Origin: a phage
Assembly: GCA_033697325.1 (NCBI GenBank)
Contig: GCA_033697325.1_4854.1
Direction: 5' to 3' (one strand)
DNA: 46,335 nt
Shown here: positions 1 through 9,597 of the stretch, one piece after another
How positions within the stretch are numbered: the stretch's first letter is position 1
How the letters are laid out: each line of letters opens with the position of its first letter
The notes under the pieces: generated by a model
The model's input: the letters and a program-made list of their open reading frames with translations, nothing else
Databases searched by the model: none
What the model was told of the DNA's origin: nothing
Translations under genes and position numbers: made by a program

Positions 1-792
1 GGTAATGAGAACACAGCTTTCGGTGAATACGCATTACGCGGAGGAAATTCCAGCCTACCTACGGGAACATCCATTCAGTATTCCGTCGCTGTAGGAGCTA
101 AAGCCGGTTTCAACGCGTTAGGTAATAATAATACAGCCATAGGTTACGAGGCACTATATTCTGCATCAGGATCTGATAATGTTGGTATTGGATTCGATGC
201 AGGGTTTAAAGTAACGGCTGGAGCTTTCAATGTATTTTTAGGTTCTAATTCTGGTAACGTGTCAGAGCAGGCTACAGATGTGACAAACTGCGTCCTTCTC
301 GGAGATAATACAAAATCAACCGGAAGTAACGCAGTAGCTATCGGTAGTGGGGTAACCGCGGCGCAAAACACGGTCGCAATCGGCAACAGCAGTCACACAG
401 ACATTTTCCAGTACGGAAATATAAAGCCGCAAATAGATAACACCTTTAGTATAGGAAGTTCTTCGGCAAGGTACTCACAAGTTTACGCGACTAACGGCAC
501 CATTAATACCTCTGACGAGCGGTTAAAAACCCCACTCGATTTCGACCTGTTAGACGCTGAAAAAAGAGCCGCCGTTGAGATAAAAAAACATATCGGTAAA
601 TTCAGGTGGCTAGACTCTGGCGGCAGTAAAATGCATTTTGGTGTTGGCGCTCAGACAGTTATTAGCATCTTACTTAAACATGAATTAAATCCTGAAGAGT
701 ATGGTTTCGTAATCCACGAAAAGTGGGACGCTGGTGATGGATACGGCATCAACTACGGCGAGCTGGCTATGTTTATATTAATGGCGATTTAA
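1..792 (+). CDS. Tail fiber protein, C-terminal part (5' end lies outside window), with C-terminal intramolecular chaperone (peptidase S74-like) domain
   Basis: Frame 1 is open from position 1 to stop at 790-792. Gly/Asn/Thr/Ala-rich repeats (GNxNTAxG) typical of fibers. TSDERLK motif at 508-528 followed by about 90 aa resembles the auto-cleaving chaperone domain of endosialidase and T5 pb1-type fibers. Confidence 0.75.
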   Translation, partial: GNENTAFGEYALRGGNSSLPTGTSIQYSVAVGAKAGFNALGNNNTAIGYEALYSASGSDNVGIGFDAGFKVTAGAFNVFLGSNSGNVSEQATDVTNCVLLGDNTKSTGSNAVAIGSGVTAAQNTVAIGNSSHTDIFQYGNIKPQIDNTFSIGSSSARYSQVYATNGTINTSDERLKTPLDFDLLDAEKRAAVEIKKHIGKFRWLDSGGSKMHFGVGAQTVISILLKHELNPEEYGFVIHEKWDAGDGYGINYGELAMFILMAI

Positions 793-1028: not shown

Positions 1029-1060
1029 AACCCCACCCGCTTCGGTGGGGTTAGTTTTAT
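1029..1060. terminator. Putative bidirectional intrinsic terminator
   Basis: ccccacc-cgcttc-ggtgggg hairpin followed by ttagtttta on the plus strand. Confidence 0.45.
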
Positions 1061-1062
1061 CA

Positions 1063-1200
1063 TCAGAAGGGGATGTCGCCGTCGAAGTCCATCGGAGGCT
1101 CATTGCCTCCTTGTGGGCTTTGTTGTTTTGGCGGCTGCTGCTTTTGTTGGTTTATTCCCCATCCACCTTGTGGTTGCTGGCCTGATTGCTGGCGTGGTGG
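1063..1200 (-). pseudogene. SSB C-terminal tail coding remnant (45 codons ending MDFDGDIPF) in frame immediately after the VRR-NUC stop codon
   Basis: Minus-strand translation read codon by codon from 1200 to 1066 gives PPRQQSGQQPQGGWGINQQKQQPPKQQSPQGGNEPPMDFDGDIPF, then TGA at 1063-1065. Closely resembles the E. coli SSB linker and acidic tip. Confidence 0.45.
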
Positions 1201-1656
1201 TTAAAAGCCATCAAATATCAATGGTTCTGATGGTTTGCTATGGTTTGGATAATTCATTGCTCGCCAGTCGTTAAATGCCATCATTGCCGCTTCCCAGCCG
1301 AGACAAACACAAGCGAATGAACCTAATCCTTTTGCTGTCTTAAGGTATGCCATTTGTCCAGGCTGCCATTTTGATAAAGTATGATCCATTCTTTTCATCT
1401 CCATAACGAATGATTGCTTTCCGCTAATAATGATGTCTGACGCCCCGAAGTTTAGCGCGCCTTTTTTCTTCAGGTTTTCAACTTCATACCCTTTACGCTT
1501 TCCTTCATTTGGTACATGAATCATAACTCTTGCAAAGTCAGGGTATAGCTTCCTTATCTGATTAACAAAAGTCTCCAGTTCAGCGTCTTCTGACGGGCAC
1601 TTTTTGTTTCTGTAATCTAAATTTCCATATACCTTAACGCCTTCTGGAAAAATCAT
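1201..1656 (-). CDS. VRR-NUC domain nuclease (PD-(D/E)xK family)
   Basis: Motifs VPNEG..., GASDIII, FVMEMKR, LSKWQ match VRR-NUC. ATG at 1656-1654 overlaps the helicase stop (ATGA coupling). Confidence 0.65.
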   Translation of the reverse strand: MIFPEGVKVYGNLDYRNKKCPSEDAELETFVNQIRKLYPDFARVMIHVPNEGKRKGYEVENLKKKGALNFGASDIIISGKQSFVMEMKRMDHTLSKWQPGQMAYLKTAKGLGSFACVCLGWEAAMMAFNDWRAMNYPNHSKPSEPLIFDGF

Positions 1657-4565
1657 AATACCCCCCAATACATGCCTTTAACGTTGAAATATTTACTACC
1701 CTTATCTCTTCTGAACATAATCACTGATGGCGCGACAGCCTCATCTCTTTTAGATATTGCATCATCAATTGACATGTTATGTTCACCAAAGCACTTCTCA
1801 CAAAATTCTTCCCACTCCTTCTTCATCCATTCCTTTTCAGAGTTTGGATTGTAGAACTTGCTAACAAAAAATGGCTTCTGGTCAATAGCAAATTTTACGT
1901 GCACCAAATCTTCACCACTTGAAACGTAATGCTTCATGATGTTCATCATGGTTACGCTTGATTGCTTGGTTGCATAAGGAGACGAATCAAGCCTGTCAGC
2001 TTCTTCCTTTAGCTTTTGGTTGGGGTCAATGATTTCAGCGCCGCATGATGTGCAGTTTCTTGCCGCTATATCATTTTCAAATCCACAATCAGGACACTCT
2101 TTCACCGACCACTTATAAGTACACCTGTGCATTTCCCTTAATGGCCCGTGCATAACGTAGTTTTTACATCTTCTGCCAAAATGAGCAGGCATAGGTTTGC
2201 TTCCAATTTTTTCACCTGACTTATCAAAAATATCAATCATCACCCTGTCACCAGCCAAATCAAGCCAGTAGCCTTCTTTGTCAACTTCCAGATTTTCCGG
2301 ATTTGGGCGCGCGCCAAATTCATTGATAAAGCCACACAACGGGCATTTTACATCCATTGGTACTGATGGTTTTTTCCTTGTTGCCTTTATTTCTGGGGTA
2401 AACAAGTCTCCAGTTTCTGAAAAGTGACGTTGAATATTTCCGGCGTAATCGCTGACAAGAAAGTCTTCCTTTCCCTCATAAAGACGCGTCCCTCTGCCAA
2501 TTATTTGCTGGTAGAGTCTTGGTGACTCTGTTGCTCTCATTACTGCTATATGATCACAATGAGGAACATCCACCCCTACAGTAAGGATATTCTGATTAAC
2601 GATGTATTTAACTTTTTGTGCCTTGAAGTCTGATATTGCCTTGTTGCGATCTGCTGTTGGCATATCACCAAAAACATAACTATAAGAACCGGGAGGAAGT
2701 GACTCCATTATCTCCATAGCGTGTTTCTTGGTACTGGCAAAAATCATCGTTCCGCGCCGATTAACAGAGCGACGGATAATATCTTCAACAATTCGTGATG
2801 TTTTCCTTCCCTTGCCAACCATCGCCTTTTCAACTGAAGCTGTTGTATACCGACCCAACTTATCCTTTTCAAGACAAGACGTATCATATTCTTCAAAAAC
2901 AGGCTCTGTAACTGGTGGCGTAAGATATCCATTTTCAATGAGGAATTTAGCCTCAAGCTCATAAACAACCTTATCATAATATGGGTCAATGGCAGTTTCT
3001 TCATCCGTAGGGCCATCGAGGTAGTGCTCTTTGTAGATGTATCCAGTTCCAAGGCGGTAAGGAGTGGCGGTCATTCCAATAACACGCAGTTTTTGATTGC
3101 GACGCTTCATTTCATTAATAATAAATTTTATGGTTGGCGTGATACCATCGCACTCGTCAATAATGACAGCACCATACTTATCACCAAACATCTCTATTGA
3201 GTTCTTTATTGTAACTGGTGAACCAAACACCACAGGATGACGCAGGTTTTTGGGGCCAGCCTTTGCACTGAACATGCTGGCTGGTTCTCCTGTTAGAGAA
3301 AGATAACGCTGCCTGTTTTGCACAACTAACTCACTTGTTGGGGCAACACACAAAACGCGCTTGCCAGTATTTTTAAAAACCCAATCGGCGATTGATGCAA
3401 CAACAACGCTTTTTCCGCTGTTATGGTGAATCGTGAAATCGCTGGTCAAATACAGATGGTCCCCATCTAAAGTAAATCCATAGAAATCATCTTCTGGTAA
3501 CTCCTCCACCTTAAAACCAGTACAGAGAACATCTTTTTTTTGCTTTCTCTCTTGTGCCACCTTGTAATCAATAAGCGGTTTAAGCATATCGATATCACCA
3601 CTGATACTTACTCTGTACTTTTTGGATACAAAAACACCGTCAAGAGTCGCGTCTCCTACGCCAATATACGCAGCCAGACCTAGTGATCTCGCAACAAACG
3701 CAATATCATCAGCAAGACGACCGGATACAGTGGTTATTTCGTAATAGTTATTGCCAAGATACCCATCAGTATCAACCAAGCCGGAGAGCAGCTCTATACG
3801 CTGTTCTTTTGACGCTATTTTGTAGCACTCAGGTATAAACACAGTGTAAGAGTTTGTGTATTGCAAACCAAGTTTTTTCACTTCATTAAGAATAGCGTTG
3901 CTTTTGTGTTTTCCTCTACCATTTGTTGCCATAAGATTGTGTGTATTTGTGCCATTTTTAACAGAGTCATTAACACAACAACCAAATGACTCTGACACGC
4001 TTTTGAAGTAGTTTATTAGTACATCCTCAGTTCCTGAAAATGTAACGCTACCGTTAGCTGTGGAACCGTCACCAAGAATCATCCCAACAAAACGCGCAGG
4101 TAAAGCCTGTTTAGCCTCTGGGAAGATAACACCTGTTCTGCATAGCTTATGTATATGCTTATGCCATTTTGCTGAACTTTCGTACTCAGCGACAGTTTCG
4201 TCGATGTACGACACCTCTTGAGATGGATATTTATTCACCTGCTTTTGCTTTACTCTCTTGAGATGAAGAATGTGATTCTTGTTAACAACAAAAGAATCAC
4301 CTTTAACTGGTGTAATTTTTCTCATCTCTTCTCGCCCACGGCACAGAGCAAGCACATTTCGTGGCTTGCTGTCCGGGCCCATTAATCTATCTCCGACTGT
4401 AACATCTTCAACGCTCTTGACGCTTCCATCAAACATAATGACTTTCGTTCCTTTGGCGTGACACCCTGTAGGCAAGATGATCATGCACGATGAAACGCTT
4501 GAACGAATATGACCTATAACAGAATCAACAGCTTCTTGTTGGTATGTTCTAAGCTGTACTTTCAT
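1653..4565 (-). CDS. SF2 (DEAD/DEAH-like) DNA helicase, interrupted by an intein; C-terminal zinc-ribbon region
   Basis: Motif I LPTG|SGKS is split by the intein. DExD-like VIIDECDG and MTATPYR motifs. C-terminal CPLCG...CPDCG...CTSCG. Start chosen at ATG 4565-4563, preceded by SD gagagga. Confidence 0.85.
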   Translation of the reverse strand: MKVQLRTYQQEAVDSVIGHIRSSVSSCMIILPTGCHAKGTKVIMFDGSVKSVEDVTVGDRLMGPDSKPRNVLALCRGREEMRKITPVKGDSFVVNKNHILHLKRVKQKQVNKYPSQEVSYIDETVAEYESSAKWHKHIHKLCRTGVIFPEAKQALPARFVGMILGDGSTANGSVTFSGTEDVLINYFKSVSESFGCCVNDSVKNGTNTHNLMATNGRGKHKSNAILNEVKKLGLQYTNSYTVFIPECYKIASKEQRIELLSGLVDTDGYLGNNYYEITTVSGRLADDIAFVARSLGLAAYIGVGDATLDGVFVSKKYRVSISGDIDMLKPLIDYKVAQERKQKKDVLCTGFKVEELPEDDFYGFTLDGDHLYLTSDFTIHHNSGKSVVVASIADWVFKNTGKRVLCVAPTSELVVQNRQRYLSLTGEPASMFSAKAGPKNLRHPVVFGSPVTIKNSIEMFGDKYGAVIIDECDGITPTIKFIINEMKRRNQKLRVIGMTATPYRLGTGYIYKEHYLDGPTDEETAIDPYYDKVVYELEAKFLIENGYLTPPVTEPVFEEYDTSCLEKDKLGRYTTASVEKAMVGKGRKTSRIVEDIIRRSVNRRGTMIFASTKKHAMEIMESLPPGSYSYVFGDMPTADRNKAISDFKAQKVKYIVNQNILTVGVDVPHCDHIAVMRATESPRLYQQIIGRGTRLYEGKEDFLVSDYAGNIQRHFSETGDLFTPEIKATRKKPSVPMDVKCPLCGFINEFGARPNPENLEVDKEGYWLDLAGDRVMIDIFDKSGEKIGSKPMPAHFGRRCKNYVMHGPLREMHRCTYKWSVKECPDCGFENDIAARNCTSCGAEIIDPNQKLKEEADRLDSSPYATKQSSVTMMNIMKHYVSSGEDLVHVKFAIDQKPFFVSKFYNPNSEKEWMKKEWEEFCEKCFGEHNMSIDDAISKRDEAVAPSVIMFRRDKGSKYFNVKGMYWGVL
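3420..4463 (-). mobile_element. Intein (348 aa) with LAGLIDADG homing endonuclease domain inserted in helicase P-loop
   Basis: Begins with Cys right after LPTG and ends ...TIHHN followed by Ser of SGKS. Two LAGLIDADG-like motifs (VGMILGDGS and LSGLVDTDGYL). Confidence 0.8.
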
Positions 4566-4579
4566 AGTGTCCTCTCGAA

Positions 4580-4602
4580 TAAAAAGGGCCACGAATGGCC
4601 CT
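4580..4602 (-). terminator. Intrinsic terminator/attenuator-like hairpin between SSB-like gene and helicase
   Basis: Minus strand agggcc-attcgt-ggccct followed by ttttt, immediately upstream of the helicase SD. Confidence 0.35.
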
Positions 4603-4618
4603 GTCATTCCAATCTAAA

Positions 4619-5140
4619 TTAAAACGGCACATCATCACTAAAGTCCATAGGCGGCTCGTTAGACGGTGCAGATTGCTTAGGAGCAGGTGCTGCTTTTGTC
4701 TGTTGACGACTGAAAACGCCAGCCACATAGTTACCAGTTTTTTGCTTATCCTCAGACTCCCAAACGCGCAGAAGAAGAATCATTGGGCGATTTGCAAGCG
4801 CACTGGCAATGGCAAAATCAGTCGGCTCTTTCCCTGATGCCATCAGCTTACCACCAGCGTTTGCGTCAATTGCTGCAAGCATAGTGATAGCATTGTCGCG
4901 CTGCTTTTCTTTCGAGCTAAATACTTTCAGCTTCTGGAAGATGATGCGATTTTTATACTCACCCTCAAGGATTCGCCACTTAAGATTGAAGAATCGCTCA
5001 CCTTCCCACTGATCGTCTTTACACTCTTCAACGGCAGCAAGAACACGGCTGCCATCAGGAATTACTTCGAAACCACCACCCAGCTCAAATTCAGATTTAG
5101 ATTCAACAGCTTTACCGTCAGAAAGATTCCAGAAACCCAT
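4619..5140 (-). CDS. Putative ssDNA-binding protein with SSB-type acidic C-terminal tip (…NEPPMDFSDDVPF); fold not a canonical SSB by eye
   Basis: C-terminus APSNEPPMDFSDDVPF resembles the E. coli SSB tail. Sits next to Sak4 and Gp157-like genes. ATG at 5140 with SD gagagga. Confidence 0.55.
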   Translation of the reverse strand: MGFWNLSDGKAVESKSEFELGGGFEVIPDGSRVLAAVEECKDDQWEGERFFNLKWRILEGEYKNRIIFQKLKVFSSKEKQRDNAITMLAAIDANAGGKLMASGKEPTDFAIASALANRPMILLLRVWESEDKQKTGNYVAGVFSRQQTKAAPAPKQSAPSNEPPMDFSDDVPF

Positions 5141-5157
5141 TTTTGTGTCCTCTCGAT

Positions 5158-5637
5158 TTATTTGATGATCAGTTTTGGTTTGCCGTCGGTGATGGCACAA
5201 CCCTTAATTTCAATCCCGGCCTTTATCGCATTTTTAATTGCTGCGTTATCTGCCGACACTTTCACAACTCGGTACTGCTCAGGAAGCTGCTCAACAGGAA
5301 CAAACACATCAAGAACTGGTGACGGTTTGCCAAGAGTGATACTGAACAATTTACCTTTGATATTTGTCTTTCCTGACGCCATCATGTTTTGACGAAGATA
5401 ATCTTTAAGGTTATCTATCTTCGCAACTAAAACACGCTTACGCTCAGAAAGACGGTCAATCTCGGATTTAAGTCCAGCTTCATCAGCTTCAAGCTCACGA
5501 ATGTAAGCAGCAACCATTTCAGCCTTTCCTTCAAACTCCTCTTCAATAAGATTGATGGTATCTTCAATCTGCTCCCGTGGAATATCCTCCATCGCCAGCA
5601 GTTCATTAAGCTGTTTGGTTATCTCGTATAGATGCAT
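5158..5637 (-). CDS. Gp157-like phage protein (Sak4-associated)
   Basis: Coiled-coil N-terminus and overall resemblance to the siphovirus Gp157 family. Position between Sak4 and the SSB-like gene. Start uncertain (ATG 5637 or GTG 5652). Confidence 0.5.
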   Translation of the reverse strand: MHLYEITKQLNELLAMEDIPREQIEDTINLIEEEFEGKAEMVAAYIRELEADEAGLKSEIDRLSERKRVLVAKIDNLKDYLRQNMMASGKTNIKGKLFSITLGKPSPVLDVFVPVEQLPEQYRVVKVSADNAAIKNAIKAGIEIKGCAITDGKPKLIIK

Positions 5638-6448
5638 AATATTTAATCTCACTCAAAAGTGGGTTCTCACCTTTTTCAAAAGGAATTTCAGGTTCAAGGT
5701 TGTATCTGTTTTTAGCATTAACATACCCAATACGACCATCACCAGAGGTGATAAGAACTCGCTGACCAGTCTGAACAACCTTTCCAAACTTGGTTACCTG
5801 CCCTTTCTTATCAGTCTCAGTCCCTTTCACAAACTCCTCATTCCTGATGTAAATTACAGCATCACTAAGATTTACATAACCAGAAACAGAAGCATCATGC
5901 ATGTCAAGTGTGTAAACTGTGTATTCATCAGCATCAGGGCGATTCTTCATCTTTTTAACACCTGCGTGTGCAAGATAAATGATGCTCATCCCTTTTTCTT
6001 TGCGAAGATACTTACATGCATTTATTATTTCAGCGTGCATTTCAGAAACAACAATATATCCTTTGTTGTAACCACCAGCAGCAGAACCAACGTTGTCAAC
6101 ACCGTAATTTTCACAAACCTCATGCTCAAACATTGAATGCAGGCTTGTGATTGAGTCAATTACAAGCGTTTTGTAATTATGTTCCTCAGTAATTAATGCG
6201 CGTAGCTGTGACAGCAAGTCATCTTTTGTGCTTGTTTTTCGTTTAGCATCAGCGCGCTTCAGAACAGGAAATGAGTCAGGTTTCTTTTCATCATCCCAGT
6301 CGTCAAAAACACCAGTTATCTCTTCTGCCTGAATAAAAACTGGGCTTGGAAACAGCGCCGCAAGTGTTGTTTTGCCTACACCTGGAGTACCAACCAATGT
6401 TATGATTGGTGCTGCTGGTTTTGGTTTTTGAATCATTGATAAGCTCAT
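5606..6448 (-). CDS. Sak4-like RecA-type ATPase (ssDNA annealing / recombination)
   Basis: Walker A LVGTPGVGKTT near the N-terminus, RecA-like core, length about 280 aa. SD gagagga before ATG 6448. Confidence 0.7.
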   Translation of the reverse strand: MSLSMIQKPKPAAPIITLVGTPGVGKTTLAALFPSPVFIQAEEITGVFDDWDDEKKPDSFPVLKRADAKRKTSTKDDLLSQLRALITEEHNYKTLVIDSITSLHSMFEHEVCENYGVDNVGSAAGGYNKGYIVVSEMHAEIINACKYLRKEKGMSIIYLAHAGVKKMKNRPDADEYTVYTLDMHDASVSGYVNLSDAVIYIRNEEFVKGTETDKKGQVTKFGKVVQTGQRVLITSGDGRIGYVNAKNRYNLEPEIPFEKGENPLLSEIKYYASIRDNQTA

Positions 6449-6582: not shown

Positions 6583-6825
6583 ATGAAAAGCATCGCAGAA
6601 CAGATAAGAGAAATGGAACAGACGAAGCTGTCAGAGCTGATTGATTATGTTGGAGGGCAATCACAACTGGCAAGGTTTCTTGGTGTGTCAAAACAGGCTG
6701 TTAATCAGTGGGTGTCAAGAGGAAGAATTAGCGCTACAGCAGCAATTGATGCCGATAAACTTACTGGTGGAGTTTTCAGAAAGGAAGATTTAAGGCCAGC
6801 CGTTACAAAATGGATTGTTAAATAA
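6583..6825 (+). CDS. Cro/CI-type helix-turn-helix transcriptional regulator
   Basis: HTH segment QSQLARFLGVSKQAVNQW. SD agaggtaa before ATG 6583. Own terminator downstream. Embedded on the opposite strand within the leftward replication operon. Confidence 0.65.
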   Translation: MKSIAEQIREMEQTKLSELIDYVGGQSQLARFLGVSKQAVNQWVSRGRISATAAIDADKLTGGVFRKEDLRPAVTKWIVK

Positions 6826-6871: not shown

Positions 6872-7267
6872 TTAAATCCCTTTCGAACTCAAGCTGTCTT
6901 TCTCTCTCCTGCCTCCGTACTCTTTGTTTACTTCCTCGTACGGAACGCCAAACGCCTTGCAGAAATTAAATAGTGCGTCACCTGCAAACACTTCGCTTGG
7001 ATGCCAGCTTCCTGAATGTCTTGCAACATCCCTGTATGAAGCTGTCACTATGCCGACATTGTTTTTGTATTTTATCCTGCAAAACAAAACGTCATCATCA
7101 ATACAGACTCCCATATTGCAACGGAACACAGGGAACTTCCAGTAGTAAACCTCCATCAGGTGTTTACCTGTCATCAGAGAGATTGCGTTGTGATGCCCAC
7201 CTTCAGGGTCTTCGGATTCAAAGTAATCAAACAATCCCTTCATTACGATGAACTTGTAGTTAATCAT
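6872..7267 (-). CDS. Hypothetical protein
   Basis: ORF of 131 aa. ATG overlaps primase stop (ATGA coupling). Confidence 0.5.
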   Translation of the reverse strand: MINYKFIVMKGLFDYFESEDPEGGHHNAISLMTGKHLMEVYYWKFPVFRCNMGVCIDDDVLFCRIKYKNNVGIVTASYRDVARHSGSWHPSEVFAGDALFNFCKAFGVPYEEVNKEYGGRREKDSLSSKGI

Positions 7268-9597
7268 ATCTCAACCTCATCATTTGTTAATTTGTAAATA
7301 ACTGCCTTGTTGGATGTTCTTTTTGCGCTTTCATCAATACAAATAACCCCATCAGATAGTAACTTATCAACGCACCTCTCAACATCTGCGCGCTTATATC
7401 CACCGTCTTTTGCTACCCCTTTAATCATTGCTGTTTTAGTCATTCCACGTTTCACATATTCTTTAACCATGGAGAACAGTCCTTCAACCCTTTCCTCCAT
7501 TGCTTTAGACTTCGCTCCGGAAATACTGTCAGCACGCATCATCAGGTCGCTTGTTGATTTAATTGTTAATGCTACCGCATATCTCAAGTGCTCCATGGTT
7601 ATAACTCCAGTATCGCACGCGAGAATGCCAGCAATCTTTGCCACCTTCACAGCACATCTGTTTATCAATGGATGATAGCCAGTACCGTTTTCTACATGCT
7701 TTCTTGCAACAGTTTTAATCCATGAGAAGAAATCCTTAGCGAGCTGAGAAACTTCAGGCGTAGCTTTTATAATCCGCCTTTCTTTTTGACTGATGATTGA
7801 GTCTGTCCAGTTTTTGTGCCCAGCTGTTCCGCCATTTATTATTGTTTTTATGGTCAGTTGCATATCCATAGGTAGATCACAGTAGTTTACGTTTTCGTTT
7901 TCGTCAGCAATCTCCTGTAACTCCTGCATAATCATTGCGCGACCCATAAGACCTGACTTAATGTTTTCTTCAGTAATAAGGCGCTTAAACTGATCATCAG
8001 TAGACACACCAAAGATTGAAAAAAATGGATTCCTTATAGCTCCATCAATTCTGTTTATCACATCATCAAACTGACACTTAATGTCAACAGGGTCTGCCTG
8101 TATCTCATTTTCCTCAATAGCCATTAACAGCATAGCCTTTCTTTTTTCGAAAGACTTAATGAAATCCTCAGTAACCCGCTGGTCACAATAAAGAACTTCT
8201 GACGTGTAAGCCTCCATGATCGCACCAGCGGTTGCCATGTTGTACTCGCTTACTTTCTGACCAACAACACTCCCAAGTTTTATCCCAATCTCATCCATGA
8301 TGATATTAAACATCTGGTTAGCGCAAAGACCTTCATATATCGCACGTTCTGAACGTATCTTACCGGCAACCGTCTTACTTAATCCTGAGCAATCAATTAT
8401 CTTTTGTAGCGCTGCAAGAACATCACCTTTACCTGAACCAGAGCCAGCGATACCAACAGCAAAAAGGTTTGGCAAAGCCTTCCTGTTTGTAAGGTAAATA
8501 TCAGATGACGCTCCGCAAATCATGGATGCAGCGTGCAATGCAGCAAGTGCTGCAATATTCTCTCGCTTCTCTGCACAGTTCTTATTAATCCACGCCGTAA
8601 GGCGACCAACAAATCCAGGGGGATAACGGACATCAACACTTTTGTACTCTACAGGGCATTCACCAACACCCATAGCCATCTCTCGCTCGAAAGACTCAAG
8701 TTTCTCAATTTCCTCTGGCGTAGCCTCAAAAGTTACTTGCCTTACCCATCCTCCCTCTTGTGCCAGATAAACAAGAGTTCCTGCGGTTATCTTGTCGTCA
8801 ATTCCATCTTTACCAAATGAATGCCATTTTGCATCCATTTCTTCTGGTCGGTATTTGCTAAACTGTGATGACCAGTTGTTCCACAGATCAAAACCATTAC
8901 CGTCAGTTGCTTCATGGATAGCCATCCCCACATTTATCCACGGATTGTACTCATCACCATCCTTGATGTATTTGAGCATGTCCTCCATTTCAGCAATGCT
9001 GTAATTTTTACTATCGAGCGTGAAAACCTCATCTTCAGATCGCTCAGGACGAAGCAGAAGTTCAATAAGTTGATATGGAGCTTCAGTTATCTCAGAAGGA
9101 GAGCCATGCTCGGCTTCATAAAAATTACCTGACTTATGGAAAGATCCGCAACCAATAACGAAACCAGATGATTTAAAGTCAATGCCATTAAATCTTCTGT
9201 CATGAGATCGCAGCTTCATTCCTTCAGGAAGTTTGTAATAGATATGGCGACCACCTCCACCAGTCTTTACCGTAAAACCAGATTCATCAGCAAGTTCAAC
9301 ATCTAACGCATCACACAACGCCTCATATCCATCATCACCACCATTCCTTGGGTCAATATCAACAACAAGGTACCCATTAACAAGAACGCCGAATGACTGT
9401 AACTTGCCATACTTAGCCATGCTTTCAATCTGCTCATCATCCCACTGAACACCAAGCTGCCAGTTACTCATAATCGGATGCTTTCCCGCAGCCTTGCATT
9501 CCGGATCGCCACAAGTACAGTTGCGCCACTCATCCATCGGATGAATGTCGATAATAGGGAAGCCGCATTTGCGATAATCTTCATAACCAATCATCAT
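7264..9597 (-). CDS. DNA primase/polymerase (prim-pol N-terminal domain) with C-terminal P-loop NTPase-like region
   Basis: VDIDPRNGGDDGYEAL and CxxC motifs resemble bifunctional prim-pol; downstream GIAGSGSGKG P-loop. ATG 9597 overlaps the upstream stop. Confidence 0.7.
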   Translation of the reverse strand: MMIGYEDYRKCGFPIIDIHPMDEWRNCTCGDPECKAAGKHPIMSNWQLGVQWDDEQIESMAKYGKLQSFGVLVNGYLVVDIDPRNGGDDGYEALCDALDVELADESGFTVKTGGGGRHIYYKLPEGMKLRSHDRRFNGIDFKSSGFVIGCGSFHKSGNFYEAEHGSPSEITEAPYQLIELLLRPERSEDEVFTLDSKNYSIAEMEDMLKYIKDGDEYNPWINVGMAIHEATDGNGFDLWNNWSSQFSKYRPEEMDAKWHSFGKDGIDDKITAGTLVYLAQEGGWVRQVTFEATPEEIEKLESFEREMAMGVGECPVEYKSVDVRYPPGFVGRLTAWINKNCAEKRENIAALAALHAASMICGASSDIYLTNRKALPNLFAVGIAGSGSGKGDVLAALQKIIDCSGLSKTVAGKIRSERAIYEGLCANQMFNIIMDEIGIKLGSVVGQKVSEYNMATAGAIMEAYTSEVLYCDQRVTEDFIKSFEKRKAMLLMAIEENEIQADPVDIKCQFDDVINRIDGAIRNPFFSIFGVSTDDQFKRLITEENIKSGLMGRAMIMQELQEIADENENVNYCDLPMDMQLTIKTIINGGTAGHKNWTDSIISQKERRIIKATPEVSQLAKDFFSWIKTVARKHVENGTGYHPLINRCAVKVAKIAGILACDTGVITMEHLRYAVALTIKSTSDLMMRADSISGAKSKAMEERVEGLFSMVKEYVKRGMTKTAMIKGVAKDGGYKRADVERCVDKLLSDGVICIDESAKRTSNKAVIYKLTNDEVEI

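What the first reader, a model, noticed from the sequence alone, without database searches (positions are those of the whole stretch)
4619..5140. Second SSB-like acidic tail on a protein that does not look like a canonical OB-fold SSB
The protein ends in APSNEPPMDFSDDVPF, very close to the E. coli SSB tip, but its N-terminal 150 aa lack the usual SSB motifs. It sits in a Sak4 / Gp157-like recombination cluster. It may be a non-canonical ssDNA-binding partner of Sak4 or a tail-mimic that recruits or titrates host SSB-interacting proteins. Together with the remnant at 1063-1200, the window carries two SSB-tail copies.
Basis: partly seen in the sequence, partly recalled or inferred. Interest (0 to 1): 0.5.

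Follow-up and report, generated by a model that had tools for sequence, protein, structure and literature searches.

The report
Known phage SSB with host-like tail
This gene encodes an already described type of phage single-stranded-DNA-binding protein (the DUF669 family, the usual partner of the Sak4 recombinase) whose last 16 residues copy the host SSB tail almost exactly, so it is real but ordinary.

Summary
Window 4619-5140 (minus strand) encodes a 173-aa protein ending in APSNEPPMDFSDDVPF. That tail matches the last 16 residues of E. coli SSB at 14 positions, and the last 51 nt match the chromosomal ssb gene at 43 positions.

The body of the protein is not a canonical SSB (no PF00436 match). 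It scores above Pfam's threshold for DUF669 and matches PHROG 9002, "single strand DNA binding protein" (3e-69). RefSeq already annotates the 95-99% identical proteins of Shigella phage Sf11, Sa179lw and YX3973 as SSB.

The order Sak4, SSB, helicase is conserved down to 42-45% identical relatives. Published work showed that the DUF669-linked SSB of phage HK620 binds ssDNA and stimulates Sak4 annealing through its last six residues.

The best reading is therefore the phage's only SSB, with a tail that docks Sak4 and probably host SSB partners. The phage group encodes no DNA polymerase.

The second tail (1066-1200) is a non-coding scar of a canonical phage ssb gene.

Novelty: already known. Interest: low.

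The parts
4619..5140 (-). Coding sequence of the 173-aa DUF669-family phage SSB, stop codon 4619-4621 included
   Evidence: Translation. Pfam DUF669 at 25.9 bits, cut-off 21. PHROG 9002 'single strand DNA binding protein', 3.1e-69. 120 listed homologues.
5117..5140 (-). Codons 1-8 (MGFWNLSD): a conserved N-terminal arm followed by a variable, low-confidence linker (residues 9-23). Inferred to be an inter-subunit arm, as in PrgE.
   Evidence: F3 is nearly invariant and M(G/S)FWN is conserved in 53 aligned homologues. pLDDT is below 50 for residues 14-23. [quoted passage not shown]
4712..5071 (-). Residues 24-143: divergent OB-fold core. Strands at 31-45, 48-59 and 66-71, a helical insert at 78-115 carrying the invariant MLAAIDANAGGKL motif, then strands at 120-128 and 135-143.
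4670..4711 (-). Residues 144-157: disordered, fast-evolving linker
   Evidence: pLDDT below 50. Among 60 close relatives, 23 of the 30 tail columns vary against 17 of the 143 core columns.
4622..4669 (-). Residues 158-173, APSNEPPMDFSDDVPF: acidic tip, 14/16 identical to the E. coli SSB C-terminus. Inferred docking peptide for Sak4 and for host SSB partners.
   Evidence: F167, D170, P172 and F173 are invariant among close relatives. 9 of 13 comparable codons are the same as in E. coli ssb, against 4.8 expected (P 0.012). The tip is required for Sak4 stimulation in HK620.
5148..5154 (-). Shine-Dalgarno-like GAGAGGA, 7 nt upstream of the ATG
   Evidence: Read directly from the sequence.
4585..4602 (-). 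Terminator-like G+C-rich hairpin followed by a T run, directly after the SSB stop and before the likely helicase start (ATG at 4565). Possibly a partial terminator that sets a high SSB:helicase ratio.
   Evidence: Consensus scan. A role as attenuator is inference only.
5606..6448 (-). Sak4-like RecA-fold annealase, first gene of the operon
   Evidence: Pfam AAA_24, 5.7e-27. PHROG 124 'Sak4-like ssDNA annealing protein', 3.9e-45.
5158..5652 (-). Gp157-family protein (named 'Mu Gam-like end protection' in PHROGs), between Sak4 and SSB
   Evidence: Pfam Sipho_Gp157, 3.1e-38. PHROG 253.
6644..6673 (-). Sigma-70-like promoter candidate (TTGCCA, 18 nt, CATAAT) upstream of Sak4
   Evidence: Best-scoring site of the scan, 10 of 12 matches. 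The number of sites found was no greater than in shuffled sequence, so this is weak evidence.
1653..4565 (-). ResIII/DEAD helicase, downstream in the same orientation. It carries a Hint + LAGLIDADG intein.
   Evidence: Pfam ResIII, DEAD, Helicase_C, Hom_end_hint, Hom_end and LAGLIDADG_3. The Sf11 helicase gene is far shorter (1911 nt, about 636 codons, against 970 aa here).
1201..1656 (-). VRR-NUC-like nuclease gene, last gene of the module
   Evidence: PHROG 824. Annotated as VRR-NUC in gmqsjt-1 and RSU-F4K5.
1066..1200 (-). Second SSB tail: the last 45 codons (disordered linker plus tip) of a canonical Skate/IME207-type phage ssb gene. It has no start codon and follows the VRR-NUC stop codon in frame. 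Interpreted as a recombination scar.
   Evidence: 77-86% nt identity to the 3' end of functional ssb genes of Skate, IME207, Akira and other phages. Protein comparison.
1029..1052 (.). Bidirectional terminator hairpin between the replication/recombination module and the convergent tail-fibre gene
   Evidence: The same hairpin sits after functional ssb in Skate, where it is annotated as a terminator.

Best explanation
The gene encodes the phage's own, and only, single-stranded-DNA-binding protein, a member of the DUF669 family.

Architecture:
- a short conserved N-terminal arm;
- a divergent OB-fold core with a helical insert;
- a disordered linker;
- an acidic tip that copies the host SSB tip (...NEPPMDFSDDVPF).

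It is transcribed with Sak4 and Gp157, ahead of a helicase and a VRR-NUC nuclease.

Proposed mechanism:
1. The OB core coats ssDNA made during phage replication and recombination. It probably forms a multimer or filament held together by the N-terminal arm, as in PrgE.
2. DNA binding exposes the C-terminal tip.
3. The tip recruits Sak4 onto SSB-coated ssDNA and stimulates ATP-dependent strand annealing.
4. The phage group encodes a primase-polymerase/helicase but no replicative DNA polymerase. A host-identical tip therefore probably keeps phage ssDNA connected to host proteins that read the SSB tip, such as Pol III chi, primosome and repair factors.

Shown here: family membership, OB fold, tail identity, conserved gene linkage, and absence of another SSB.
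Shown by others for a remote relative (HK620): ssDNA binding and tip-dependent stimulation of Sak4.
Inferred: ssDNA binding by this particular protein, its oligomeric state, its contact with Sak4, and its contacts with host partners.
For: - Family: Pfam DUF669 above the gathering score. PHROG 9002 'single strand DNA binding protein' at 3e-69, plus weaker matches to five other SSB PHROGs.
- Prior annotation: near-identical proteins are annotated as SSB in RefSeq records of Sf11, Sa179lw, YX3973 and VLCpiS13c.
- Sequence link to PrgE: PrgE and this protein both match PHROG 378.
- Tail: of the 120 listed homologues, all but about ten (truncated, extended or frame-shifted entries) end in an acidic tip with a final F. 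F167, D170, P172 and F173 are invariant among close relatives even though the tail is otherwise about 35-fold more variable per site than the core.
- Gene linkage: the order Sak4, SSB, helicase, with Prim-Pol nearby, is conserved in 86% and in 42-45% identical relatives.
- No other SSB: canonical SSB queries hit only the two tails in the window. The Sf11 genome lists no other SSB and no DNA polymerase.
- Literature: DUF669 was proposed as a highly diverged OB-fold SSB with acidic tails, found in viruses that lack other SSBs (PMC4889955). HK620 SSB binds ssDNA and stimulates Sak4 through its last six residues (PMC5928155). sak4 genes usually lie next to DUF669 SSB and ResIII helicase genes (PMC8093625).
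Against: - No experiment exists on this protein or on any close relative.
- The only characterised Sak4-cognate SSB (HK620) shows no detectable similarity to this subfamily in my tests. hhalign probability was 0.1 with a single sequence, the PHROG differs (743), and HK620 SSB itself does not reach Pfam DUF669 at E 0.1.
- The two Sak4 proteins are also only remotely related. The Sak4-docking step is therefore an analogy at family level.
- The AlphaFold model is of moderate confidence (mean pLDDT 71, pTM 0.59).
- PrgE, the closest structure, binds dsDNA as well as ssDNA and is not a typical SSB.
- Contacts with host partners are inferred only from tail identity.
Confidence: 0.85

Rival explanations
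1. Tail-mimic or decoy. The main role of the protein is to present a host-type SSB tip that titrates or redirects host SSB-interacting proteins (ExoI, RecQ, PriA, RecO, UDG and others). In this reading ssDNA binding is secondary or absent.
For: The tip is 14/16 identical to host SSB and similar at the DNA level. Some relatives carry the exact host sequence APSNEPPMDFDDDIPF.
Against: The OB core is far more conserved than the tail, so selection acts mainly on the fold. The family is linked to SSB function by fold, by context and by experiment on HK620. It is the only SSB candidate in the genome. A decoy would not need a 140-residue conserved OB domain.
Confidence: 0.07
2. The protein is itself a strand-annealing protein of the T7 gp2.5 type (SSB and annealase in one) and acts independently of Sak4.
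For: One homologue (60% identity, Yersinia phage vB_YenS_P400) is named 'ssDNA annealing protein' by its depositors. The architecture of an OB fold plus an acidic tail ending in F resembles gp2.5 (my own knowledge of gp2.5).
Confidence: 0.05
3. N4-SSB-like dual role. Besides binding ssDNA, the C-terminus activates host RNA polymerase at phage late promoters.
For: N4 SSB is linked to DUF669 by HHsearch (98% probability, PMC4889955). It activates E. coli RNA polymerase through C-terminal residues S260, K264 and K265 (PMC2784036).
Against: The tail here is acidic and of the host-SSB type, with no lysine-rich end. Unlike N4, this phage group has no virion or second RNA polymerase system in the Sf11 annotation. 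No direct similarity to N4 SSB was tested here.
Confidence: 0.03

Closest known systems
Pfam DUF669 (PF05037) / PHROG 9002 phage SSBs, e.g. Shigella phage Sf11 gp9 (YP_010053053.1)
   Same: Direct member. Pfam score is above threshold and the PHROG match runs full length. The gene region is 94-96% identical at the DNA level to those of Sf11, YX3973 and Sa179lw, whose proteins carry the same tail and sit in the same operon.
   Different: Nothing of substance. The tip reads SDDVPF here and DDDIPF in Sf11.
SSB of phage HK620 (HkaK/Abc1, NP_112044), the experimentally characterised Sak4-cognate SSB
   Same: Encoded next to sak4. Described as DUF669-linked. Has a C-terminal tail ending in PF that is needed to load and stimulate Sak4. 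Shown to be a bona fide ssDNA binder (PMC5928155).
   Different: No detectable sequence similarity in my tests, and a different PHROG (743 against 9002). The tip is NDYPPF rather than the host-like DFSDDVPF. The gene lies directly after sak4 with no Gp157 between. HK620 is a temperate Lederbergvirus.
PrgE of Enterococcus plasmid pCF10 (PDB 8s4s / 8s4t)
   Different: 14% identity. Plasmid-borne, inside a type IV secretion operon. Binds dsDNA as well as ssDNA and is not essential for conjugation. The tail ends in EEDW, not in a host-SSB tip.
E. coli SSB (PF00436 family)
   Same: The last 16 residues are 14/16 identical and the last 51 nt are 43/51 identical. The logic of the architecture is the same: OB domain, disordered linker, acidic tip.
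   Different: The OB domains show no profile-level similarity. The linker here is 14 residues, against about 50 in E. coli SSB. The oligomeric state here is unknown.
Phage N4 SSB (gp45)
   Same: Linked to DUF669 by HHsearch. Acts in replication and recombination. Its gene also lies next to a sak4 gene.
   Different: N4 SSB is longer (its activating residues are numbered S260-K265) and carries a lysine-containing C-terminal region that activates RNA polymerase. It was not compared directly here.

Membership tests
Pfam DUF669 (PF05037) phage SSB family | Match to the family HMM above the gathering score | tested here: met
   25.9 bits against a cut-off of 21, residues 23-141 on profile positions 10-127 of 138. 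Most close homologues carry a precomputed PF05037 hit.
Pfam DUF669 (PF05037) phage SSB family | Acidic C-terminal tail typical of SSBs (Kazlauskas et al. 2016) | tested here: met
   The tail NEPPMDFSDDVPF is present. Nearly all of the 120 listed homologues end in an acidic tip with a final F.
Pfam DUF669 (PF05037) phage SSB family | The genome encodes no other known SSB | tested here: met
   tblastn with canonical SSBs hits only the two tails in the window. The Sf11 annotation lists only gp9 as SSB.
Pfam DUF669 (PF05037) phage SSB family | Diverged OB fold | tested here: met
Canonical bacterial-type SSB (PF00436 / NCBIfam PRK09010) | Match of the N-terminal OB domain to the family profile | tested here: not met
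   No PF00436 hit at E 0.1. PRK09010 matches only residues 138-173, at 25.5 bits against a cut-off of 260. hhalign against eight canonical SSBs aligns only the tail.
Canonical bacterial-type SSB (PF00436 / NCBIfam PRK09010) | C-terminal tip of the form D-F-D-D-D-I-P-F | tested here: met
   14 of 16 residues are identical to E. coli SSB.
Sak4-cognate SSB (HK620 type) | Gene adjacent to, and in one operon with, a sak4 gene | tested here: met
   Sak4 lies two genes upstream in the same orientation. The two are directly adjacent in 42-45% identical relatives.
Sak4-cognate SSB (HK620 type) | Sequence homology to HK620 SSB | tested here: not met
   hhalign of the subfamily profile against HK620 SSB gives probability 0.1. 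The PHROGs differ. This is a weak test, because the HK620 side was a single sequence.
Sak4-cognate SSB (HK620 type) | The C-terminal residues are required for loading Sak4 and stimulating annealing | not testable with these tools
   This needs biochemistry. Only the presence of a conserved tip ending in PF is shown.
PrgE-like OB-fold proteins | Structural similarity of the OB core with extra helices | tested here: met
PrgE-like OB-fold proteins | N-terminal arm that drives oligomerisation on DNA | tested here: inconclusive
   The conserved MGFWNLSD arm followed by a flexible linker is present. Its role was not tested.
T7 gp2.5-like SSB/annealase (DUF2815, PF10991) | Match to the family profile or fold | tested here: not met

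The most novel reading that the evidence does not exclude
Two linked ideas remain open.

1. The 16-residue host-identical tip was captured at the DNA level from an enterobacterial ssb gene and is kept matched to the host. This would let a structurally unrelated phage SSB plug phage ssDNA into the host SSB interaction network (Pol III chi and other partners), in addition to loading Sak4.

2. The second, canonical-ssb tail, which follows the VRR-NUC stop codon in frame, is not a dead scar. It would be expressed at a low level, by stop-codon read-through here or as the ATG-started 22-24-codon mini-ORF seen in RSU-F4K5 and VLCpiS13c. The product would be an SSB-tip extension on the nuclease or a free tip decoy.
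Probability: 0.1. Interest if true: 0.5.

Novelty: already known. Interest (0 to 1): 0.15.

Why it matters
It matters little beyond correct annotation. The gene is the SSB of a Sak4-type recombination and replication module, and this pairing is already described and exploited for recombineering.

Two points are modestly useful.

- This subfamily pairs a non-canonical OB core with a tip that is nearly identical to the host SSB tip, and similar at the codon level. That makes it a clean natural example of tail matching between phage and host SSBs, and a candidate for portable Sak4/SSB recombineering pairs in Enterobacterales.
- The ssb scar next to the tail-fibre gene marks a mosaic junction shared with Skate/IME207-like phages.

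Tried and rejected
Searches that led nowhere:
- A profile of the subfamily (A1) searched against all PDB sequences gave nothing significant. No close relative has a solved structure, and the link to PrgE is by fold and through PHROG 378 only.
- hhalign of A1 against the single sequences of HK620 SSB and PrgE found no similarity. Pfam gave no hit for either protein. Homology to the characterised HK620 SSB therefore could not be confirmed here.
- BLASTP of the window Sak4 against HK620 Sak4 was not significant.

Ideas considered and rejected:
- That the DUF669 tail was copied from the remnant at 1066-1200. Aligned by eye from the tip, the remnant's codons differ from the DUF669 tail at most synonymous positions and in the residues before NEPP (QGG against APS), whereas E. 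coli ssb matches 43/51 nt (sequences).
- That the remnant is a translated gene. Its variable sites are biased towards third codon positions (16 of 22, P 2e-4), and it follows the VRR-NUC stop codon in frame in seven phages. Against this, it has no ATG, GTG or TTG start in the Sf11 clade. It is absent from gmqsjt-1 and from the Citrobacter-type relative. Its two alleles, with and without GGWGxNQ, mirror the two alleles of functional ssb genes in IME207/Skate and in Akira/ZCEC08/LPST10. The RSU-F4K5 form is the 3' end of a ZCKP8-type ssb. Exchange with functional ssb genes at a mosaic junction explains the pattern without translation.
- A +1 shift at TTTT-AA. It leads into the wrong frame.
- A suppressor tRNA. 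Only a tRNA-Met gene is present.

Full report
**1. Observation**

Window 4619-5140 carries, on the minus strand, an ORF of 173 codons plus a TAA stop. It translates to MGFWNLSDGKAVESK...QSAPSNEPPMDFSDDVPF*. The ATG at 5140 is the real start. It is preceded by GAGAGGA with a 7-nt spacer, and every homologue begins with M(G/S)FWN.

APSNEPPMDFSDDVPF aligns with APSNEPPMDFDDDIPF at 14 of 16 residues (E 2.8e-4). The myosin entries in that list are fusion constructs that carry the same SSB tail.

At the DNA level, the last 51 nt match the 3' end of chromosomal ssb in 5420 of 5426 complete E. coli genomes. Identity is 43/51 for the listed best hits (E 2e-5). Of the 13 codons that encode the same residue and could differ synonymously, 9 are identical. 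The phage's own codon usage predicts 4.8 (P 0.012). In the APSNEPPMDF block the figure is 8 of 9 (P about 0.001), but that block was chosen after seeing the data.

The body of the protein has no canonical SSB signature.
- Pfam returns only DUF669.
- NCBIfam's SSB model matches only residues 138-173, far below its cut-off.
- A profile-profile comparison of 53 homologues with eight canonical SSBs aligns only the tail (probability 93.6%).

The neighbours are as stated: Sak4 (AAA_24, PHROG 124) and Gp157 lie directly upstream.

**2. What the window is**

The region is 94-96% identical to Shigella phage Sf11 (genus Cedarrivervirus), Klebsiella phage YX3973, Escherichia phage Sa179lw and others. About 80% identical versions occur in Klebsiella phages RSU-F4K5, VLCpiS13c and 6991. 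In the RefSeq versions of these records the orthologue is already annotated "single strand DNA binding protein". Its neighbours are annotated "Sak4-like ssDNA annealing protein" and "Mu Gam-like end protection".

**3. Family and fold**

- The protein scores 25.9 bits on Pfam DUF669 (cut-off 21).
- It scores 3e-69 over its full length on PHROG 9002, "single strand DNA binding protein". Weaker matches go to five other SSB PHROGs, including 378.
- A search of 5.8 billion proteins returned 180 relatives down to about 42% identity.
- An AlphaFold2 model built on 53 of them has mean pLDDT 71, with 78-89 in the core. It shows strands at 31-45, 48-59 and 66-71, helices at 78-115, and strands at 120-128 and 135-143. 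This is the order of elements in an OB fold, with an enlarged helical insert. Residues 14-23 and 148-168 are disordered.
- Foldseek agrees: PrgE at E 3e-5, then RPA and bacterial and mitochondrial SSBs.
- The BFVD viral library returns 85 hits at E below 1e-3, many of them named DUF669 or SSB.
- PrgE itself matches PHROG 378 (9e-8), as does the window protein (3e-6). This gives an indirect sequence link that agrees with the fold match.

PrgE was solved bound to ssDNA. It binds "like beads on a string", and its N-terminal tail contacts the next monomer (PMC11137577). PrgE also ends in an acidic tail with a terminal aromatic residue. The window protein has the same layout: a conserved N-terminal arm (F3 nearly invariant), a variable linker, the OB core and an acidic tail.

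The columns invariant across the subfamily include W55, R65, F68, W127 and G136, and the helix motif MLAAIDANAGG.

**4. Context**

The gene order, all on the minus strand, is:
1. a promoter-like site (6644-6673);
2. Sak4 (5606-6448);
3. Gp157 (5158-5652);
4. SSB (4619-5140);
5. a terminator-like hairpin (4585-4602);
6. a ResIII/DEAD helicase (1653-4565);
7. a VRR-NUC-like nuclease (1201-1656);
8. the ssb remnant (1066-1200);
9. a bidirectional terminator (1029-1052).

A Prim-Pol/D5-type primase-helicase lies at 7264-9597.

The block Sak4, Gp157, SSB, helicase, nuclease recurs in an 86% identical Citrobacter-type relative. In three lineages only 42-45% identical, the SSB gene follows Sak4 directly. 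There it is followed by a YqaJ exonuclease, the helicase and a small protein, with Prim-Pol upstream.

The complete Sf11 annotation lists no DNA polymerase and no other SSB. tblastn of canonical SSBs against the window hits only the two tails.

**5. Literature**

- Kazlauskas et al. linked DUF669 to the SSB of phage N4 (98% HHsearch probability). They noted the acidic C-terminal tails and the absence of other SSBs in DUF669-bearing viruses, and proposed highly diverged OB folds (PMC4889955).
- Hutinet et al. showed that the DUF669-linked protein encoded next to sak4 in phage HK620 is a bona fide SSB. [quoted passage not shown] Its last six residues (NDYPPF) are required for Sak4 to bind SSB-coated ssDNA. 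Up to 80% of sak4 genes lie next to such an ssb gene (PMC5928155).
- A survey of Firmicutes phages describes the same neighbourhood: Gam-like or orf157-like genes, sak4, DUF669 SSB and a ResIII helicase (PMC8093625).

**6. Mechanism proposed**

The protein is the phage's SSB. The OB core coats ssDNA, and the tip is the docking peptide for Sak4. This last step is an analogy with HK620.

The phage depends on the host replicase, and its tip is the host tip. The tip therefore probably also serves the host proteins that read the SSB C-terminus. This is inference, resting on established knowledge of the E. coli SSB interaction network as cited.

Among 60 close relatives, the core has 17 variable columns out of 143, and the tail has 23 out of 30. 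That is about 35-fold more variation per site in the tail. F167, D170, P172 and F173 never change. This is the pattern expected of a disordered linker with a short functional tip.

More distant relatives keep only the generic ending, such as DDDIPF, DDDVGF or DSDIPF. The extended NEPPMDF block is confined to the enterobacterial clade. Together with the codon-level similarity, this points to capture from, or exchange with, an enterobacterial-type ssb gene. That conclusion is suggestive, not proven.

**7. Limits**

- I could not reproduce homology between this subfamily and HK620 SSB.
- The two Sak4 proteins are only remotely related.
- Nothing was tested biochemically.
- PrgE is an atypical DNA binder that also binds dsDNA.

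**8. The second tail**

Minus-strand 1066-1200 encodes PPRQQSGQQPQGGWGINQQKQQPPKQQSPQGGNEPPMDFDGDIPF followed by TGA TGA TAA. It is 77-86% identical in DNA to the 3' end of functional canonical ssb genes of Skate, IME207, Akira, LPST10 and many other siphoviruses. In those phages ssb is the last gene before a terminator and a convergent tail-spike gene, which is the position the remnant occupies here.

The remnant has no start codon. It begins directly after the VRR-NUC stop codon and is in frame with it. The same holds in Sf11, Sa179lw, YX3973 and ECO111.

RSU-F4K5 and VLCpiS13c carry a shorter version that begins with ATG: MKPSTTQKPPANEPPMDFDDDIPF. It derives from a ZCKP8-type ssb.

Differences among the remnants fall mostly at third codon positions (16 of 22, P 2e-4), which at first suggests that the remnant is translated. 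However, the two remnant alleles, with and without GGWGxNQ, mirror the two alleles seen in functional ssb genes. The remnant has also decayed or is absent in gmqsjt-1 and in the Citrobacter-type phage.

I therefore read it as the scar of a module exchange, kept similar to functional ssb genes by recombination at a mosaic junction next to the tail-fibre cassette. The in-frame position after the nuclease stop codon, at two different junctions, remains unexplained. Low-level read-through or a mini-ORF cannot be excluded.

**9. Verdict**

The protein belongs to a described family whose role alongside Sak4 is already established, and its close relatives are already annotated as SSB. Novelty: already known. 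Interest: low.

Noticed in passing
window 1066-1200 (minus strand); L001, L006, L007, L008, L011, L012: The canonical-ssb tail remnant follows the VRR-NUC stop codon (TAA, TAG or TGA) in frame in seven phages. Two different junctions occur, and in RSU-F4K5 and VLCpiS13c the remnant starts with its own ATG, giving a 22-24-codon mini-ORF that ends in DDDIPF. Variable sites are biased towards third codon positions (16 of 22). Exchange with functional ssb genes explains most of this, but the in-frame position is unexplained.
   Followed up: partly
window 1653-4565 (minus strand), about residues 35-380 of the helicase: The ResIII/DEAD helicase is interrupted, apparently within its Walker A region (ILPTG | C...HHN | SGKS, read from the translation), by an intein with Hint and LAGLIDADG homing-endonuclease domains. 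The protein is 970 aa here, whereas the Sf11 helicase gene is 1911 nt (about 636 codons). YX3973 also has a long version, mis-annotated as terminase.
   Followed up: partly
window 4585-4602 (minus strand): A G+C-rich hairpin with a T run sits between the SSB stop codon and the helicase start. It may be a partial terminator that gives more SSB than helicase. The listed helicase ORF start at 4607 is probably wrong. The ATG at 4565 has the same TCGAGAGGACAC ribosome-binding sequence as the SSB gene.
   Followed up: no
window 1201-1656 (minus strand) and its orthologues: The VRR-NUC-like nuclease itself ends in a short motif with a terminal Phe (IFDGF, ISDGF, IDSF or INNF in different phages). This is reminiscent of the C-terminal docking tips of phage replication proteins.
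   Followed up: no
window 259-792 (plus strand): The convergent tail-fibre gene ends in an endosialidase-type catalytic fragment plus a Peptidase_S74 intramolecular chaperone domain. The tail-spike and tail-fibre genes at this position differ between related phages, consistent with cassette exchange beside the ssb scar.
   Followed up: no
L027, L029, L031 (42-45% identical relatives): In distant relatives Gp157 is missing and a YqaJ-type exonuclease follows the SSB gene, giving a Sak4, SSB, exonuclease, helicase module. Gp157 and YqaJ may be alternative end-processing or end-protection partners.
   Followed up: no
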